Below are positions 47,423 to 51,961 of a stretch of DNA of 64,000 nucleotides, one piece after another. Source of the stretch: Acidimicrobiia bacterium. Its GTDB lineage: Bacteria; Actinomycetota; Acidimicrobiia; IMCC26256; PALSA-555. The position numbers and the translations under genes were made by a program. The first letter of the stretch is position 1. Each line of letters opens with the position of its first letter. Under the pieces are notes generated by a model, which saw nothing but the letters and a program-made list of their open reading frames with translations, was not told the origin of the DNA and ran no database searches. Where the stretch lies: positions 9,779 through 73,778 of the forward strand of contig JBBECS010000050.1 of assembly GCA_040881685.1 (NCBI GenBank). The letters run 5' to 3'.

Positions 47423-47971
47423 TCAGGAGCCGCGCGTGAGCTGTTCGATCTTCCCGAGGATGGTGTTGCGCGCGCGGTGTGCGGCCTCGTACTCGCGGAT
47501 CGCCTCGAGGTCGGTGCTGGACAGGTCGTCGAGGTGGTCCACGACCTGGGATGCCGAGAGGTCGTCGTACCCCGGGATCGCGAGGTCGCCCCGATCGCGG
47601 TTCCGGGTGACGGCACCCGCCGCGTCCCGGTCGGCGCATTCGGCCACGTCGGCCGCGTCGGACGTGCCTGCGTCCGTCACTCCGAGCGCTACGAGCGCTT
47701 CCTCGGCTTTCTCGCGCAGCGCAGCAAGGCCGGTCGAGAGCACCCGCAGGACCTCTGGTCCGCCGTCGGTCGCCGCGGTCTCGCCAAGCGTGCGCACCTG
47801 ATCGATCTGCTCACCGACCGACTTGCGGCGTTGGTCGAGCTCGGTGCGGCCGCGGGCCACGAACATGCGCATGAACTGGGGCGCGCTGTCGCGCAGGAAG
47901 AGCGCCAAGCCGACGGGTCCGTAGACGAGCAGCTCCTTGGCCCGCTCGACGGTCGCGTTTTCGTCGCTCAC
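47423..47971 (-). CDS. Hypothetical protein with a C-terminal actinobacterial helical domain
   Basis: IPGYDDLSASQVV..L..LEAIREYEAAHRARNTILGKIEQL. Confidence 0.7.
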   Translation of the reverse strand: MSDENATVERAKELLVYGPVGLALFLRDSAPQFMRMFVARGRTELDQRRKSVGEQIDQVRTLGETAATDGGPEVLRVLSTGLAALREKAEEALVALGVTDAGTSDAADVAECADRDAAGAVTRNRDRGDLAIPGYDDLSASQVVDHLDDLSSTDLEAIREYEAAHRARNTILGKIEQLTRGS

Positions 47972-49458
47972 GAGCCGGAGTCTACGGCTGTCCTCCAGCG
48001 AGCTCGTACTCCCCCGAGCACCGTCACGGCGACGAGCGCGAGCCCGCACACGACCAGCGCCCAATCACCGAAGCGCACATACGGCGTCTGGCCGGTCGTC
48101 GTCTGCACGGTCCCCGACGTGATCCGGTTCTCGAAGAGTTCGCTGGTGTCGTGAACGCGACCATCGGGTTCGATCACGCCGGTGATCCCCGAGATCGAGG
48201 CGTGGAGCACCGGCCGGCCCGTCTCAGCCGCGCGCATCTGACTCAGCGCAAGATGCTGCGCCGAGAGTCCTGATCGCCGGTATGACCGGTTGTTCGTCGT
48301 GACGACGATGAGCTCGGCGCCGTCGCGGACGAAGCCGCGAACGAGGGGCGCGAACGCGGACTCGTAACAGATCACCGTTCCGAAGTCATGGCCACCTGCT
48401 CGGAACATCACTCGCTCGGTCCCTCGTTCGTAGTCGAACGGGATCCGATCGAGCTCCTCGATGAACGGGAGCAGATCTCGCAGCGGGACGTACTCGCCGT
48501 ACGGGACGAGGTGCTGCTTGGCGTAGATGCCTTGGAGCTCTCCATCGGGGTCGTACGCGAGATTGCTGTTGGAGAGCCTCCCGCGAGCGGTCAGGACCCT
48601 GGCGTTTGCCAGCACGACGGCATCGTGGGCTTCGGCGACCGCGAGCAGCGCCGCTCGGACGTCGCGAAACCGCGTGGGATCCCGCTCGAGCGCGGACTCT
48701 GGGAACACGATCAGGTCGTATTCTCCGCGCAGCCGCGCTGCGAGCTCGAGGTGGTGGCGCATCAGAAAGTCACTGCGGATCTCAGCGGTCGTCAGATCGC
48801 GGTTCTGATCGAGCCCCTGCAGCAGCGCGAACCGCAGATCGCCCGTGACCTCCGGCTCGTAGCGCGCGACGCTCGCAACCACGGTGCACGCGACCAGCGC
48901 CGAAAGCCCCACACCAGCCCAGGCCAGACGCGTCTGCGTTCTGTGACGCACCGAATCGATCGCGTCGAGCACCAAGCCGTTGAACACGACGACGACGAAC
49001 GAGACGAGCGTGACCCCACCGAGGCTAGCGAACACCCGCGCGACCGGGATGTCGTGCAAAGCCGCGCCGATCTCACCCCAGGGCACGCCTCCGAATGGAA
49101 TGCGTCCCCGCGCCCCTTCGACCACCACCCAGACCGCGCCGATCAGCCAGGGCGTGCGCAGGCCTCGCCGCTCCAACACGGCGACGATCCCTCCCGCGAT
49201 GGCAATGAATGCGGCCTCACCAACGACAGCCACGAGGACCGCGACAACGCCGAAGTACCGAGTCCACTCGAGCAGGACACCGAAGAACGCGAGGCCGAAC
49301 AAGAACCCGTACAACGCGGCTCGCGCCGGGGTCGAACCGCGCCACGCCCACAGGAGTGGGACCAGAGCGACGAGCGCGGCCGGCCCGAGATCAACCGGTG
49401 GAAAGGAGATGCCGAGAACGATTCCTGCGGCGACACACGCGAGCGCGCGATCTCGCAC
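47968..49458 (-). CDS. lnt: Apolipoprotein N-acyltransferase
   Basis: PFGGVPW, FPESA, KQHLVPYGEY, VICYES (E-K-C triad). Confidence 0.95.
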   Translation of the reverse strand: MRDRALACVAAGIVLGISFPPVDLGPAALVALVPLLWAWRGSTPARAALYGFLFGLAFFGVLLEWTRYFGVVAVLVAVVGEAAFIAIAGGIVAVLERRGLRTPWLIGAVWVVVEGARGRIPFGGVPWGEIGAALHDIPVARVFASLGGVTLVSFVVVVFNGLVLDAIDSVRHRTQTRLAWAGVGLSALVACTVVASVARYEPEVTGDLRFALLQGLDQNRDLTTAEIRSDFLMRHHLELAARLRGEYDLIVFPESALERDPTRFRDVRAALLAVAEAHDAVVLANARVLTARGRLSNSNLAYDPDGELQGIYAKQHLVPYGEYVPLRDLLPFIEELDRIPFDYERGTERVMFRAGGHDFGTVICYESAFAPLVRGFVRDGAELIVVTTNNRSYRRSGLSAQHLALSQMRAAETGRPVLHASISGITGVIEPDGRVHDTSELFENRITSGTVQTTTGQTPYVRFGDWALVVCGLALVAVTVLGGVRARWRTAVDSGS

Positions 49459-49487: not shown

Positions 49488-49973
49488 TCAGGCGCAGTCG
49501 CGGCAGAGCATCCGCGGTTCGTCAGCGAGTTGGGTTCGTGGGAGCACGAGGAAGCACGACGAGCACAGGAACTCACCCGGACGGCGGGGCATGATCTTGG
49601 TCGGCCCCTCGCCGCGGTCGTCGAGCTCAACCTCCTCCTCCTCGACCTCCTCTTCCTCGTCCTCCATCGTGGCGGCCGCGGTCTTCTCTTTGAGCAACGC
49701 ATCCAGCGGCGCTTCGACGTCGTCGGGATGCAGCTCCTCGTCAAGGTCGAGACCGTCCTCTTCCTCGTCGTCGTCGCTCTTGGGCTCGGGCACAGCGACG
49801 ACCGCGGCCACGACGGCTTCACCGTCGACCACCGGGATCACGTCGGGGTCGAGCGCTTCATCGAGATCCACGACATCGATGTCATCGTCGAGCGCATCGT
49901 CGTCGAGATCCTCCTCATCGAGATCCTCGTCGGGCGCATCGTCTTCGGCGTCCTCGAACTCTTCGTCGCTCAT
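49488..49973 (-). CDS. DUF4193 family protein (very acidic N-terminus, C-terminal Cys cluster)
   Basis: D/E-rich run, then PRRPGEFLCSSCFLV..QLAD..CRDC. Confidence 0.8.
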   Translation of the reverse strand: MSDEEFEDAEDDAPDEDLDEEDLDDDALDDDIDVVDLDEALDPDVIPVVDGEAVVAAVVAVPEPKSDDDEEEDGLDLDEELHPDDVEAPLDALLKEKTAAATMEDEEEEVEEEEVELDDRGEGPTKIMPRRPGEFLCSSCFLVLPRTQLADEPRMLCRDCA

Positions 49974-50082
49974 GTGCTCGATCTCCGGCCCGGTGCCGGG
50001 CTCATCAGGGGCCGGAGCATAATCCCGCGCCCGGTCCGCGACGCCGGAACCCGGGGATCGCCACGCACATTCCCGCGGCGCC

Positions 50083-50185
50083 AAAAGAAAGGAGGCCCAG
50101 GAGACCGTTGGGGCAACTGCTTAGCCCACCTCGCCGTTGGCGAGCGGGTTATCGCAGCCTTCTCTACTTGGTCTCCTGAGCCCCC
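50083..50185 (-). ncRNA. Candidate rod-shaped structured RNA / attenuator with U-tract
   Basis: 16-bp outer stem, internal bubble, inner stems, then UUUCUUUU; imperfect pairs are G-U only on the minus strand. Confidence 0.55.
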
Positions 50186-50205
50186 GGTGCCCGCGTGTCC
50201 GGCAC
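50164..50205 (-). CDS. Candidate 13-aa uORF MPDTRAPGAQETK
   Basis: GAGGAGGAG Shine-Dalgarno 9 nt before GTG; stop codon lies just past the 5' arm of the hairpin. Confidence 0.35.
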   Translation of the reverse strand: MPDTRAPGAQETK

Positions 50206-50362
50206 GCCGGCGCGCTCCTCCTCGAGGTCGCGACGACAACCGGGGTCGGGACGACAGGTAGTACGCCCGAAGAACCGCTCCGCTGTCAAGCGCGCGATCA
50301 CCGGCCTGACCTGCACTGTCGCGCGTTGATGCTGGTCACCGCCTCGCGATTTTCGTGGTCCG

Positions 50363-51961
50363 TCAACGAGCAGCGCGCTTGGCCTCGGCCGCGCGCTCGG
50401 ACTCGAGCCGCTCGAGCCCGTACGTCTCGTGATCGACGTGGCGCATCGCCGCGGCAAGGGCCCGGTGGCCCGCCTGCTGTTCGATGAGGTGGTGCATCTC
50501 CTGGCAGACCCGACGGTACGCCGGATGGCCCTGAGGCGACGTCCGCAGCTCGAGCATGTGCATCGCCTCACGAGCGTTCAGCTGCATCGCGAAGCGCACT
50601 CGGTGCGCGAGCGCGACCGCGTACGGAGCCTCGCGTGGGAAGAGGTCGAAGATGTCGTCGTGCAGAGCCGCCGATCGCTCCATGGTCTCGTCGAACTCCG
50701 CCGTCAGCCCAGCGTCCCCCACCTCGTCCGGCACCTCGTAGCCGTGCTCGGGCGTGAGCGCCTGCCATTCGATGGTCAGCATCCGGTGGCGCTGGAGGTC
50801 GCGGAAGGCCCCGTAATCGGTCAGCACGTCGAATCGGTAACCGGTCCGCTCGAACGCGCGCCCGGGCTTGTGTCGCCGGTTGGCGCGGTCCCCCACGTAT
50901 GCGTCGAGCAGGGCCAACCGATCGTCGGCGCCAAGCGCGCGGACCCGCCGCAGCACCTGGTCGTCTGGCATGGCGACGTTCGGATAACAGATCGCGGCCA
51001 GGACCTTGTCTTCGCCCTCCGGGTCGAAGTCGGTCAGCGCGACGGCCGGACGCGGCTCGGGATCGACGTCCGCGAAGATCCGCGCGACCACCGCCTCGGT
51101 CTCGACGCGCGTCTGCTCGAGGTAGTCACTCCACGCGATACCACGATCTTCGCGGTCGACTCGTGTGAGGAACGAAGGGATCACCTTGCGCAGCTCGTCG
51201 AGCATCATGGCGGCGTAGACGCGGGCTTCGGGCAAGGGATGCGCGCGCATCCGCAGCAGCAACGCCTCGAAGGCTTGGCCGGTCCCGTAGATGCCCACGT
51301 TCGAGAGCGTCGCCGCGGGGAGCAACCCACGCGCGGCATCGCACGCCTTCGCCTTGATCGTCTGCTTGTAGACGAAGTCGGTGTCACCAGCCTGCTTCGG
51401 GAACGCCTCTCGGGCCCAGTCGGTCAGCAGCGGGAGACATCGTGAATAGGTGTCGAAGCTGGCGTCCATGTCGGCGATGTACCGGAGACCGAGTTCTGAC
51501 TCGAGCACGCTCCGCGGGCGGTAGAAGCGGTACCGGCCGTCGAGGCGAGTGTCGTATGGGATGTAACGAGTGGACTGCTCGAGGTACGCCATGAGGCGCC
51601 CCCACTCAAGGATCTTCGTCAACACGTTCGACGCCTGCTCGCACGCCAGGTGCACACCACCGAGCTGCGCGACCGAGTCGTCGCCGTATTCGAGGAACAC
51701 GCGGTCGTAGAGCTCCTCGGCTCGAGTCAAGCCGATGCTCGCGTCGACCGTGAGGTCGCCGGTGAGGTCAAGATCGCCGACGAACTCGTCGAGGAAGAGC
51801 CGGCGGAGGCTCTTCGGCGACCGCGAGTACCGCGCGAACAAGGCCCCCTTGACGACCTCGGGCAGGTTGACCAACGCGAACACCGGGCAGTCGAGGCTCG
51901 TGAAGTACGGCCGGAGCGTCGTCTCTTCGTCGGCGGTGAAGCGCTCGACCGCGTACTGCAT
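50363..51961 (-). CDS. thyX: FAD-dependent thymidylate synthase, tandem-domain type
   Basis: ALFARYSRS, EQSTRY, ARGLLPA in the N-half; DLQRHR, NARE in the C-half; 532 aa. Confidence 0.85.
   Translation of the reverse strand: MQYAVERFTADEETTLRPYFTSLDCPVFALVNLPEVVKGALFARYSRSPKSLRRLFLDEFVGDLDLTGDLTVDASIGLTRAEELYDRVFLEYGDDSVAQLGGVHLACEQASNVLTKILEWGRLMAYLEQSTRYIPYDTRLDGRYRFYRPRSVLESELGLRYIADMDASFDTYSRCLPLLTDWAREAFPKQAGDTDFVYKQTIKAKACDAARGLLPAATLSNVGIYGTGQAFEALLLRMRAHPLPEARVYAAMMLDELRKVIPSFLTRVDREDRGIAWSDYLEQTRVETEAVVARIFADVDPEPRPAVALTDFDPEGEDKVLAAICYPNVAMPDDQVLRRVRALGADDRLALLDAYVGDRANRRHKPGRAFERTGYRFDVLTDYGAFRDLQRHRMLTIEWQALTPEHGYEVPDEVGDAGLTAEFDETMERSAALHDDIFDLFPREAPYAVALAHRVRFAMQLNAREAMHMLELRTSPQGHPAYRRVCQEMHHLIEQQAGHRALAAAMRHVDHETYGLERLESERAAEAKRAAR

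What the first reader, a model, noticed from the sequence alone, without database searches (positions are those of the whole stretch)
50083..50290. Candidate novel rod-shaped RNA with a 13-codon uORF running into its 5' arm
Seen on the minus strand: GGGGGCUCAGGAGACC pairs with GGUCUCCUGGGCCUCC over 16 bp. Inside are an AAGUAGAGAA/GCCCCAAC bubble, then GGCUGC/GCAGUU, CCC/GGG and CUCGCC-AAC-GGCGAG stems; UUUCUUUU follows. All non-Watson-Crick pairs in these stems are G-U on this strand and would be A-C on the other, which fixes the orientation. Upstream are GAGGAGGAG-N9-GTG, opening MPDTRAPGAQETK with its stop just past the 5' arm, and a perfect TTGACA at 50284-50289 with no clean -10. DUF4193 has its own TATGCT at 50016-50021. 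It lacks SRP and known riboswitch signatures. Inference: either a translation-coupled attenuator (a ribosome on the uORF blocks the terminator stem) or a stand-alone sRNA with 6S-like stem-bubble-stem shape.
Basis: partly seen in the sequence, partly recalled or inferred. Interest (0 to 1): 0.65.

Follow-up and report, generated by a model that had tools for sequence, protein, structure and literature searches.

The report
Conserved small RNA beside DUF4193 gene
The hairpin is the conserved core of a small RNA gene absent from Rfam; it has its own promoter and sits next to the DUF4193 gene (homologue of an essential mycobacterial gene) in many Actinomycetota, and the proposed 13-codon upstream frame is a chance feature.

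Summary
The rod-shaped hairpin is real (window 50185-50091, minus strand, U-tract 50090-50083). It is single-copy in this Acidimicrobiia genome and matches no Rfam 15 family. In 82 non-redundant relatives, 94.8% of cells pair and 22 of 32 pairs show compensatory changes. G-U outnumbers A-C 198 to 25, which fixes the minus strand.

It is not the thyX terminator. A promoter-like element (TTGACA-N17/18-CGTACT) lies upstream in 140 of 144 loci. In other classes the same position reads TTGACA-N18-TAnnnT, and there the upstream gene can be divergent.

It is probably not a plain DUF4193 leader either. DUF4193 has its own conserved promoter-like elements downstream of the rod: GGAAT-N18-GTT and TATGCT.

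The 13-codon uORF is not conserved. 59 of 114 relatives have no in-frame start, the same as control frames, and two same-genus relatives lack the UAG.

A broader covariance model finds the family in 99 of 401 sampled Actinomycetota genomes, usually upstream of DUF4193-lnt and sometimes stand-alone. It co-occurs with canonical 6S RNA in 18 genomes, so it is not 6S.

Best reading: an independently transcribed structured small RNA of about 170 nt whose rod also acts as its terminator. Function is unknown; a protein-binding role is inferred. No expression data could be obtained.

The parts
50284..50289 (-). -35 box TTGACA of the small RNA's own promoter
   Evidence: TTGAC[AGT] is present upstream of the rod in 140 of 144 Acidimicrobiia loci. 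It is also present in other classes as TTGACA-N17/18-TAnnnT. TTGACA occurs only 217 times in the 3.1-Mb genome.
50260..50265 (-). -10-like hexamer CGTACT, 18 nt after the -35 box (overlapping TACTAC at 50263-50258)
   Evidence: Commonest hexamer at this spacing (CGTACT, CTGACT, CTCACT). It is positionally equivalent to TAGCAT and TACAGT in other classes. It resembles this genome's tRNA-gene -10 boxes, cGTAnnnT. The predicted transcription start near 50251-50253 is an inference.
50186..50253 (-). Variable 5' domain of the RNA. It starts with the conserved CGUCCC and contains the non-conserved 13-codon frame at 50205-50164.
   Evidence: Its length varies from 6 to about 97 nt among relatives. 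CGUCCC and GGUCGUGG motifs and a local hairpin recur. No consensus structure was obtained. The uORF is not conserved.
50170..50185 (-). P1 5' arm, GGGGGCUCAGGAGACC
   Evidence: Covariation in 9 of 14 P1 pairs within the class and 13 of 14 across the phylum.
50160..50169 (-). Internal loop, 5' strand, AAGUAGAGAA (near-invariant; UAG at 50166-50164)
   Evidence: At least 90% conserved columns in 82 relatives. Kept in the mini paralog and in other classes.
50115..50159 (-). P2 (GGCUGC/GCAGUU), AAUAA-type loop, P3 (CCC/GGG) and apical P4 hairpin (CUCGCC-AAC-GGCGAG)
   Evidence: All P2-P4 pairs show compensatory changes. The apical part is replaced or shortened in other lineages.
50107..50114 (-). 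Internal loop, 3' strand, GCCCCAAC (near-invariant)
   Evidence: Invariant or at least 90% conserved columns. Conserved in all subfamilies.
50091..50106 (-). P1 3' arm, GGUCUCCUGGGCCUCC
50083..50090 (-). U-tract UUUCUUUU; likely 3' end and intrinsic-terminator tail
   Evidence: At least 5 of 8 T within 22 nt after the rod in 24% of relatives, against 2-8% in control windows. At least 6 of 8 T in 12.6% against 0-0.8%. The tail is 74% pyrimidine.
50048..50073 (-). GGAAT-N18-GTT, an ECF (SigH/SigR-type) promoter-like element of DUF4193, downstream of the RNA
   Evidence: Present in many Acidimicrobiia loci, and as GGAAC/T-N17-18-GTT in other classes. The sigma assignment rests on established consensus knowledge and was not tested.
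50016..50021 (-). TATGCT, -10 box of a proximal DUF4193 promoter, followed by CCGGCCCC
   Evidence: TA(T/C/G)(A/G)NT + CCGCGGCC is conserved in nearly all loci, and reads TACAAT or TAGAAT in other classes.
49488..49973 (-). DUF4193 gene (161 aa), the conserved downstream neighbour
   Evidence: Pfam PF13834, E = 3.4e-10. Downstream of the RNA in about 130 of 144 class loci and 15 of 23 phylum loci.
50363..51961 (-). thyX (long form, 532 aa), the upstream neighbour in this order only
   Evidence: Pfam Thy1. Synteny. It is not the upstream gene in several class loci or in other classes.

Best explanation
The finding is the conserved 3' domain of an independently transcribed small RNA gene.

Proposed anatomy in this genome:
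- RNA polymerase starts about 7 nt after a sigma-A-type promoter: TTGACA at 50289-50284, an 18-nt spacer, then CGTACT at 50265-50260.
- It transcribes a poorly conserved 5' domain of about 65 nt.
- It then transcribes a rod of about 95 nt (50185-50091).
- The rod's 16-bp G+C-rich basal helix plus UUUCUUUU (50090-50083) ends the transcript, giving an RNA of roughly 165-175 nt.

What selection preserves is the rod: the upper part of P1 (purine-rich 5' strand, pyrimidine-rich 3' strand), an internal loop with near-invariant AGUAGAGAAC opposite GGCCCCAAC, and P2. The apical part and the 5' domain are free to vary or disappear.

A pattern of invariant loop bases held between covarying helices is what a specific protein-recognition (or tertiary-contact) module looks like. 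I therefore infer that the RNA works as a stable protein-binding small RNA.

The gene is genetically linked to DUF4193-lnt across Actinomycetota. DUF4193 has its own promoters downstream of the rod.

Status of each step:
- Shown: the structure, the strand, conservation, single copy, synteny, promoter-like and terminator-like sequence elements, and non-conservation of the uORF.
- Inferred: the transcript ends, independence from the DUF4193 mRNA, and the protein-binding function.
For: Structure and strand:
- Covariation is strong: 94.8% of cells paired, 22 of 32 pairs with double changes, 0 of 500 shuffles reach this.
- At phylum level: 96.1% paired, 27 of 28 pairs with double changes.
- Strand: 198 G-U against 25 A-C cells.

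Identity:
- Single copy in the genome.
- No Rfam family in the window or in relatives.

Own promoter:
- TTGACA-N17/18-(C)GTACT in 140 of 144 loci.
- Canonical TTGACA-N17/18-TAnnnT in other classes.
- In L010 and L231 the promoter abuts the rod, so the rod alone is the RNA.
- In other classes the upstream gene is divergent.

Terminator-like 3' end: U/C-rich tail enriched after the rod.

DUF4193 has its own promoter-like elements between the rod and its start codon, in all classes examined.

Copies with no co-oriented downstream gene to regulate lie between convergent or divergent genes.

Breadth:
- 64 of 301 class genomes with model R1.
- 99 of 401 phylum genomes with model R2.
Against: - No expression data.
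- The -10 hexamer in Acidimicrobiia lacks the canonical A at -11.
- Only about a quarter of relatives have a clear U-tract, so read-through into DUF4193 is possible.
- Phylum-wide placement immediately upstream of, and co-oriented with, one gene is more typical of cis-regulatory RNAs than of trans-acting small RNAs.
- A mini paralog has no promoter of its own and sits at the 3' end of a CoA-transferase gene.
- No binding partner or target was identified. A search for sites complementary to the loop found nothing telling.
Confidence: 0.6

Rival explanations
1. Cis-acting leader or attenuator of DUF4193-lnt. The upstream promoter makes a long leader. The rod is a terminator whose efficiency is set by a factor that reads the invariant internal loop. 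That factor could be DUF4193 itself, a zinc-ribbon protein predicted in a preprint to bind RNA polymerase, which would give autogenous control. Read-through adds to transcription from the proximal promoters.
For: - The RNA is co-oriented with and directly upstream of DUF4193 in about 130 of 144 class loci and 15 of 23 loci from other classes. In L212 only 33 nt separate the rod from the ATG.
- The U-tract is imperfect in most relatives.
- The segment after the proximal -10 box can pair with the Shine-Dalgarno region in many relatives, which would matter only for long transcripts.
- The DUF4193-RNA polymerase link is predicted in preprint 10.64898/2026.07.15.738315.
Against: - DUF4193 has its own conserved promoter-like elements downstream of the rod.
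- Stand-alone copies have no downstream co-oriented gene.
- P1 is 16-24 bp and G+C-rich, and no conserved competing antiterminator was found.
- The pairing with the Shine-Dalgarno region was seen only in single-sequence folds and was not tested for covariation.
Confidence: 0.25
2. RNA-polymerase-directed decoy: a 'mini-6S' or Ms1-like RNA. The P1-bubble-P2 geometry imitates an open promoter, and the RNA acts together with the polymerase-associated DUF4193 protein.
For: - Helix of 16-24 bp, a 10/8-nt bubble, then a second helix of about 12-15 bp.
- Strong consensus promoter, as for stable RNAs.
- Linkage to DUF4193, which a preprint predicts to occupy the downstream-DNA channel of RNA polymerase.
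- No RF00013 hit in this genome or in any Acidimicrobiia, f62 or f75 genome of the sample.
- Negative association with 6S: odds ratio 0.48, not corrected for phylogeny.
Against: - No similarity to RF00013.
- The rod is half the length of known 6S RNAs.
- The 5' and 3' ends do not form a closing stem.
- 18 genomes carry both a 6S RNA above Rfam's cut-off and this RNA at different places.
- Nothing here tests polymerase binding.
Confidence: 0.1
3. Translation-coupled attenuator: a ribosome on the 13-codon uORF masks the 5' arm of the terminator.
For: In this genome a GTG with an upstream GAGGAGGAG opens a frame that stops at the UAG in the loop. In three mini-paralog loci a real gene's stop codon is that same UAG.
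Against: - No in-frame start in 59 of 114 relatives, equal to control frames (53 and 57).
- An SD-like motif in only 3 of 114.
- Frame lengths of 8-29 codons.
- L010 has no room for a uORF.
- L018, L024 and the f62 lineage lack the UAG.
Confidence: 0.02
4. Elaborate intrinsic terminator or 3' stabiliser of thyX.
For: It lies 179 nt downstream of the thyX stop, on the same strand, and has a G+C-rich stem plus U-tract.
Against: - A conserved promoter lies between thyX and the rod.
- thyX is missing or more than 1 kb away in about a dozen class loci that keep the RNA and its promoter.
- In other classes the upstream gene is divergent.
- The invariant loop sequences are not explained by a terminator role.
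Confidence: 0.03

Closest known systems
6S RNA (Rfam RF00013) and mycobacterial Ms1 RNA
   Same: A rod-like small RNA with an internal bubble between two helices, made from a strong sigma-A-type promoter, in a phylum where 6S or Ms1 is often hard to find.
   Different: - No RF00013 match.
- The rod is about 95 nt, against about 180 nt for 6S and about 300 nt for Ms1.
- There is no closing stem formed by the two ends.
- It co-occurs with canonical 6S in 18 sampled genomes.
- Polymerase binding was not tested, and Ms1 was not compared by a model.
Bacterial small SRP (4.5S) RNA, RF00169
   Same: A single-copy hairpin of about 100 nt with conserved asymmetric internal loops and covarying helices.
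   Different: The genome's true SRP RNA is elsewhere (contig C2, 80.3 bits). This RNA has no RF00169 match, and its apical loop is variable rather than a conserved tetraloop.
Leader-peptide transcription attenuators (trp, his, pheA type)
   Same: In this one genome, a short frame runs into the 5' arm of a terminator-like hairpin upstream of a gene.
   Different: The frame, its start codon and its stop codon are not conserved, and no conserved antiterminator pairing was found.
Orphan structured ncRNA motifs found by comparative genomics (for example raiA, and the 6C RNA of Actinobacteria)
   Same: Conserved sequence and covarying structure, lineage-wide distribution, conserved gene neighbourhood, function unknown. 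Like 6C, it exposes a C-rich single-stranded segment.
   Different: - No Rfam match to any of them.
- The architecture is one long interrupted hairpin, not two C-loop hairpins.
- It is linked specifically to DUF4193.
Autogenous leader control of transcription factors (rho leader attenuation, the NusA-dependent terminator upstream of nusA in Bacillus subtilis; from my own knowledge)
   Same: A terminator-like element directly upstream of a gene for a (predicted) RNA-polymerase-associated protein.
   Different: No evidence that DUF4193 affects termination or binds the RNA, and DUF4193 has promoters downstream of the element.

Membership tests
6S RNA (RF00013) | Match to the RF00013 covariance model | tested here: not met
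   No hit at E <= 10 in window 49900-50450. No hit at E <= 10 anywhere in the genome.
6S RNA (RF00013) | RNA of about 180 nt whose 5' and 3' ends pair into a closing stem around a large central bubble | tested here: not met
   The rod is a local 3' hairpin of about 95 nt. In full-length folds of 23 relatives the 5' domain folds on itself and does not pair with the 3' end.
6S RNA (RF00013) | It is the genome's 6S RNA (no other canonical 6S present) | tested here: not met
   18 genomes have a 6S above Rfam's cut-off plus this RNA at another place. No 6S was detected in Acidimicrobiia, f62 or f75.
6S RNA (RF00013) | Binds sigma-A holoenzyme and templates product RNA | not testable with these tools
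   Needs biochemistry.
Bacterial small SRP RNA (RF00169) | Match to RF00169 and being the genome's only SRP RNA | tested here: not met
   No hit in the window. The SRP RNA is at G000:C2:180257-180356, 80.3 bits.
Leader-peptide attenuator | Conserved short ORF with a start codon and ribosome-binding site | tested here: not met
   59 of 114 relatives have no in-frame start, against 53 and 57 in control frames. An SD-like motif is present in 3 of 114. The UAG is absent in L018, L024 and f62.
Leader-peptide attenuator | Conserved alternative (antiterminator) pairing | tested here: inconclusive
   The GGUCGUGG motif could pair with the P1 5' arm on paper. Folds of truncated transcripts do not use it consistently, and no covariation is visible.
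Intrinsic terminator of the upstream gene | Directly follows the upstream gene with no promoter between, and travels with that gene | tested here: not met
   A promoter-like element lies between them in 140 of 144 loci. The RNA is kept where thyX is absent or the upstream gene is divergent.
Intrinsic terminator (as the RNA's own 3' end) | G+C-rich stem followed by a U-rich tract | tested here: met
   In the window: a 16-bp stem plus UUUCUUUU. The U-rich tail is enriched in relatives but clear in only about 24%.
Known riboswitch classes (Rfam 15) | Match to any riboswitch covariance model | tested here: not met
   No match for the element in the window or in 15 related loci.
Stand-alone structured small RNA gene | Covarying secondary structure on one strand | tested here: met
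Stand-alone structured small RNA gene | Own promoter | tested here: met
   At sequence level only: a conserved -35/-10 pair at fixed spacing.
Stand-alone structured small RNA gene | Discrete transcript with defined ends | not testable with these tools

The most novel reading that the evidence does not exclude
The RNA is a miniature open-promoter mimic that binds RNA polymerase and acts together with the neighbouring DUF4193 protein. DUF4193 is a homologue of M. tuberculosis Rv2699c, which a preprint reports as essential and predicts to insert into the polymerase's downstream-DNA channel. Together they would form a previously unknown RNA-protein pair regulating transcription across non-model Actinomycetota.
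Probability: 0.1. Interest if true: 0.85.

Novelty: new member of a known kind. Interest (0 to 1): 0.62.

Why it matters
Several observations make this worth attention.

- It is a covarying RNA with near-invariant loop bases, its own promoter, and 1-2 copies per genome, found in about a quarter of sampled Actinomycetota genomes and absent from Rfam 15. That makes it a solid candidate for a new functional RNA class.
- Its fixed position beside DUF4193 gives an experimental handle on a small protein that a preprint reports as essential in M. tuberculosis. The protein's role is only now being guessed at: predicted RNA polymerase binding, and rifampicin sensitisation on depletion.
- Whether the RNA acts in trans or as a leader, it probably reports on how this protein is controlled or what it does.
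- For annotation, the thyX-DUF4193 gap in Acidimicrobiia should carry an ncRNA gene and not a small ORF.

Tried and rejected
- **Rfam 15.** Scanned at gathering and at permissive E-values on the window and 15 related loci. Nothing matched the element.
- **Repeat family or mobile hairpin.** Rejected: one copy in the genome, and 1-2 per genome elsewhere.
- **SRP RNA.** Rejected: the true one is on contig C2.
- **6S RNA.** Rejected as membership.
- **uORF attenuator.** Rejected.
- **thyX terminator.** Rejected.
- **Antiterminator pairing between the 5' GGUCGUGG motif and the P1 5' arm.** No support.
- **Consensus structure for the 5' domain.** None obtained.
- **Trans targets complementary to the two loop strands in this genome.** Only scattered, unremarkable hits.
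- **Other promoters of the TTGACA-N-GGGCGTACT type in the genome.** None found, so no regulon.

Full report
**The observation.**

- A 16-bp basal helix P1 (50185-50170 with 50106-50091) contains two G-U pairs.
- An internal loop has AAGUAGAGAA (50169-50160) opposite GCCCCAAC (50114-50107).
- Three further helices follow (GGCUGC/GCAGUU, CCC/GGG, CUCGCC-AAC-GGCGAG), then UUUCUUUU (50090-50083).

The fold is much better than shuffled sequence: -64.8 kcal/mol, z = -4.5. The opposite strand folds just as well (-66.9 kcal/mol, z = -5.5), so energy alone does not fix the strand.

The flanking genes are confirmed by Pfam:
- a long-form ThyX (50363-51961)
- DUF4193 (49488-49973)
- Lnt (47968-49458)

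**It is a conserved, structured RNA on the minus strand.**

The element is single-copy in its own 3.1-Mb genome. It is found at 67-87% identity in most relatives of the order. A degenerate pattern retrieved more than 120 further loci, whose titles place them in Acidimicrobiia and unclassified Actinomycetota MAGs.

An alignment of 82 sequences below 93% identity gives one consensus hairpin:
- 94.8% of cells are paired.
- 22 of 32 pairs have compensatory double changes.
- No shuffle out of 500 reaches the observed values.
- Pairing collapses when the 3' partners are slid by one column.

G-U pairs outnumber A-C 198 to 25. The covariance model R1 scores 102-116 bits on this strand against 27-36 on the other. 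The RNA is therefore read in the same direction as thyX and DUF4193.

The near-invariant positions are the top of P1 (CAGGAGACC/GGUCUCCUG) and both strands of the internal loop (AGUAGAGAAC and GGCCCCAAC). The apical part varies freely, carries insertions in some lineages, and is replaced in others.

**It is not a known family.**

Rfam 15 gives nothing for the element, neither at gathering thresholds over the whole window nor at E <= 10 over 49900-50450. It also gives nothing in 15 related loci.

The genome's SRP RNA lies on another contig. RF00013 (6S) finds nothing in the genome.

**It has its own promoter and is not the thyX terminator.**

Right-aligning the upstream sequences shows a striking element. 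TTGAC[AGT] is present in 140 of 144 loci and is followed at 17-18 nt by a hexamer ending in ACT, most often CGTACT. In the window these are 50289-50284 and 50265-50260.

The hexamer lacks the canonical A at -11. However, in other classes of the phylum the same position carries perfect boxes, such as TTGACA-N18-TAGCAT and TTGACA-N18-TACAGT.

For comparison within this genome:
- The tRNA genes use cGTAnnnT boxes with no -35.
- The rRNA operon uses TTGACT-N17-TAGGAT.
- TTGACA is rare, at 217 sites in the genome.

Further points against a thyX-terminator role:
- In one same-genus relative (L010) the promoter abuts the rod, so the rod alone is the transcript.
- thyX is more than 1 kb away or absent in about a dozen class loci that keep both RNA and promoter.
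- In two loci from other classes the upstream gene is on the opposite strand.

**The 3' end.**

The sequence after P1 is 74% pyrimidine. At least 5 of 8 T occur within 22 nt in 24% of relatives, against 2-8% in four control windows. At least 6 of 8 T occur in 12.6% against 0-0.8%.

The window has one of the clearest U-tracts. The rod therefore looks like the RNA's own intrinsic terminator, though in most relatives an imperfect one.

**DUF4193 has its own promoters downstream of the rod.**

Two elements are conserved between the rod and the DUF4193 start:
- GGAAT-N18-GTT (window 50073-50048). This matches the established SigH/SigR-type ECF consensus, which I state from knowledge and did not test.
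- A TAnnnT box followed by CCGCGGCC (window TATGCT, 50021-50016).

Both recur in other classes as GGAAC-N17/18-GTT and TACAAT/TAGAAT-CCnCGGCC.

Single-sequence folds often pair the segment after the -10 box with the Shine-Dalgarno region. This would matter only for transcripts that start further upstream. I did not test it for covariation.

**The uORF is a chance feature.**

Among 114 non-redundant relatives that have the UAG, 59 have no in-frame ATG, GTG or TTG inside the predicted transcript. The two other frames give 53 and 57. An SD-like motif precedes the start in 3 relatives, against 6 and 4 in the controls. Frame lengths scatter from 8 to 29 codons.

L010 has no room for a frame. L018 and L024 (same genus) read GGGCGAGAG and GGGAGAGAG where the UAG should be. 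The f62 lineage reads GAGGACAAC there.

**The family is much wider than the class.**

- R1 finds one copy in 64 of 301 class genomes, mostly in the window's order.
- R1 also finds, unexpectedly, 56 genomes of other classes.
- R2, a second model built from class, phylum and paralog sequences, finds 99 of 401 sampled Actinomycetota genomes in 15 families outside the window's class, with 1-2 copies each.
- On the 60-sequence phylum alignment, 27 of 28 pairs show compensatory changes. That alignment is fitted to the model, which favours the structure.

In 15 of 23 fetched loci from other classes DUF4193 again lies downstream, followed by lnt.

The remaining copies form a second subtype with a GGGGAAGG apical loop. 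They lie between convergent or divergent genes, namely an ABC ATPase, a polA-like gene and a tRNA, behind canonical TTGACN-N17-TAnnnT promoters. They have no co-oriented gene to regulate.

**A mini paralog.**

In 14 of 401 class genomes a version of about 80 nt keeps P1, the loop and a short P2. It sits at the 3' end of a CoA-transferase III gene and upstream of an AMP-binding (FadD-like) gene, with no promoter of its own.

In three of six loci examined in detail the CoA-transferase stop codon is the loop's UAG. In the others it is not, so this overlap is incidental.

**Is it a 6S RNA?**

RF00013 was run on the same 401-genome sample and found 135 genomes. 22 of these also carry the new RNA, 18 with a 6S above Rfam's cut-off, and at different places in the genome.

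The RNA is therefore not the 6S orthologue and does not simply replace it. There is a negative association (odds ratio 0.48, p = 0.007, not corrected for phylogeny). No 6S was detected in Acidimicrobiia, f62 or f75. The idea of a functionally related RNA is therefore not excluded.

Preprint 10.64898/2026.07.15.738315 states the following about the DUF4193 protein ML1026/Rv2699c:
- It is essential.
- It is predicted by AlphaFold3 to bind the beta' jaw and shelf, with its N-terminus in the downstream-DNA channel.
- Its depletion sensitises cells to rifampicin.

Rv2699c is also listed as induced about 10-fold in starved M. tuberculosis (PMC3898074). These facts make the linkage interesting but prove nothing about the RNA.

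**Verdict.**

The element is the core of a conserved small RNA gene that matches no Rfam family.

I favour an independent transcript of about 170 nt that ends at the rod and works as a protein-recognition RNA (0.6). A leader or attenuator of DUF4193 is the main rival (0.25), and a polymerase decoy is the boldest reading (about 0.1). The uORF attenuator and the thyX terminator are rejected.

An earlier agent of this scan reached the same 'undescribed small RNA' conclusion from another genome. Here I add:
- the promoter
- the downstream DUF4193 promoters
- the phylum-wide spread
- the paralogs
- the uORF test
- the 6S co-occurrence test

Noticed in passing
L189-L209 (for example L191:1554-1638, L198:1476-1555): A mini paralog of the rod, about 80 nt, keeps P1, the AGUAGAGAAC/GCCCCAAC loop and a short hairpin. 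It sits at the 3' end of a CoA-transferase III gene and upstream of an AMP-binding (FadD-like) gene in 14 of 401 Acidimicrobiia genomes. It is not present in the window's genome.
   Followed up: partly
L196-L209, about 15-60 nt after the mini paralog: A conserved palindromic, operator-like sequence, GGTTTTCCAGAG-N5-6-CTGTGGA(A/C)AA, preceded by CAGTATCCACCA, lies upstream of the FadD-like gene. At first sight it resembles DnaA boxes. It is more likely a transcription-factor site.
   Followed up: no
window 50048-50073 and 50016-50021; L213-L229: DUF4193 genes in several classes of Actinomycetota share two promoter-like elements: an ECF-type GGAA(C/T)-N17-18-GTT, and a TAnnnT box followed by CCGCGGCC. 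This suggests stress-sigma plus housekeeping control of this gene.
   Followed up: partly
window 50306-50315 (minus strand, TGCAGGTCAG): A (T)GCAGGTCA(G) motif recurs upstream of the small RNA's -35 box in many Acidimicrobiia loci (in the window it ends about 16 nt upstream of TTGACA). It may be a regulator site or an upstream promoter element.
   Followed up: no
L053, about 110-150 nt downstream of the rod: A partial tandem duplication of the rod's 3' arm (GGGCCCCAACGGTCTCCTGGACCCC). This matches an earlier agent's remark about strain-variable 3' duplications in another genome.
   Followed up: no
L025:1999-2045: A Guanidine-II (mini-ykkC) hit of 35.8 bits (cut-off 32) lies inside a tandem-repeat region between the RNA and DUF4193. 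It could be a repeat artefact.
   Followed up: no
phylum sample: RF00013 (6S) finds no match in any sampled Acidimicrobiia genome, nor in families f62 and f75, although it finds 135 of 401 Actinomycetota genomes overall. Those lineages may lack a recognisable 6S RNA.
   Followed up: partly
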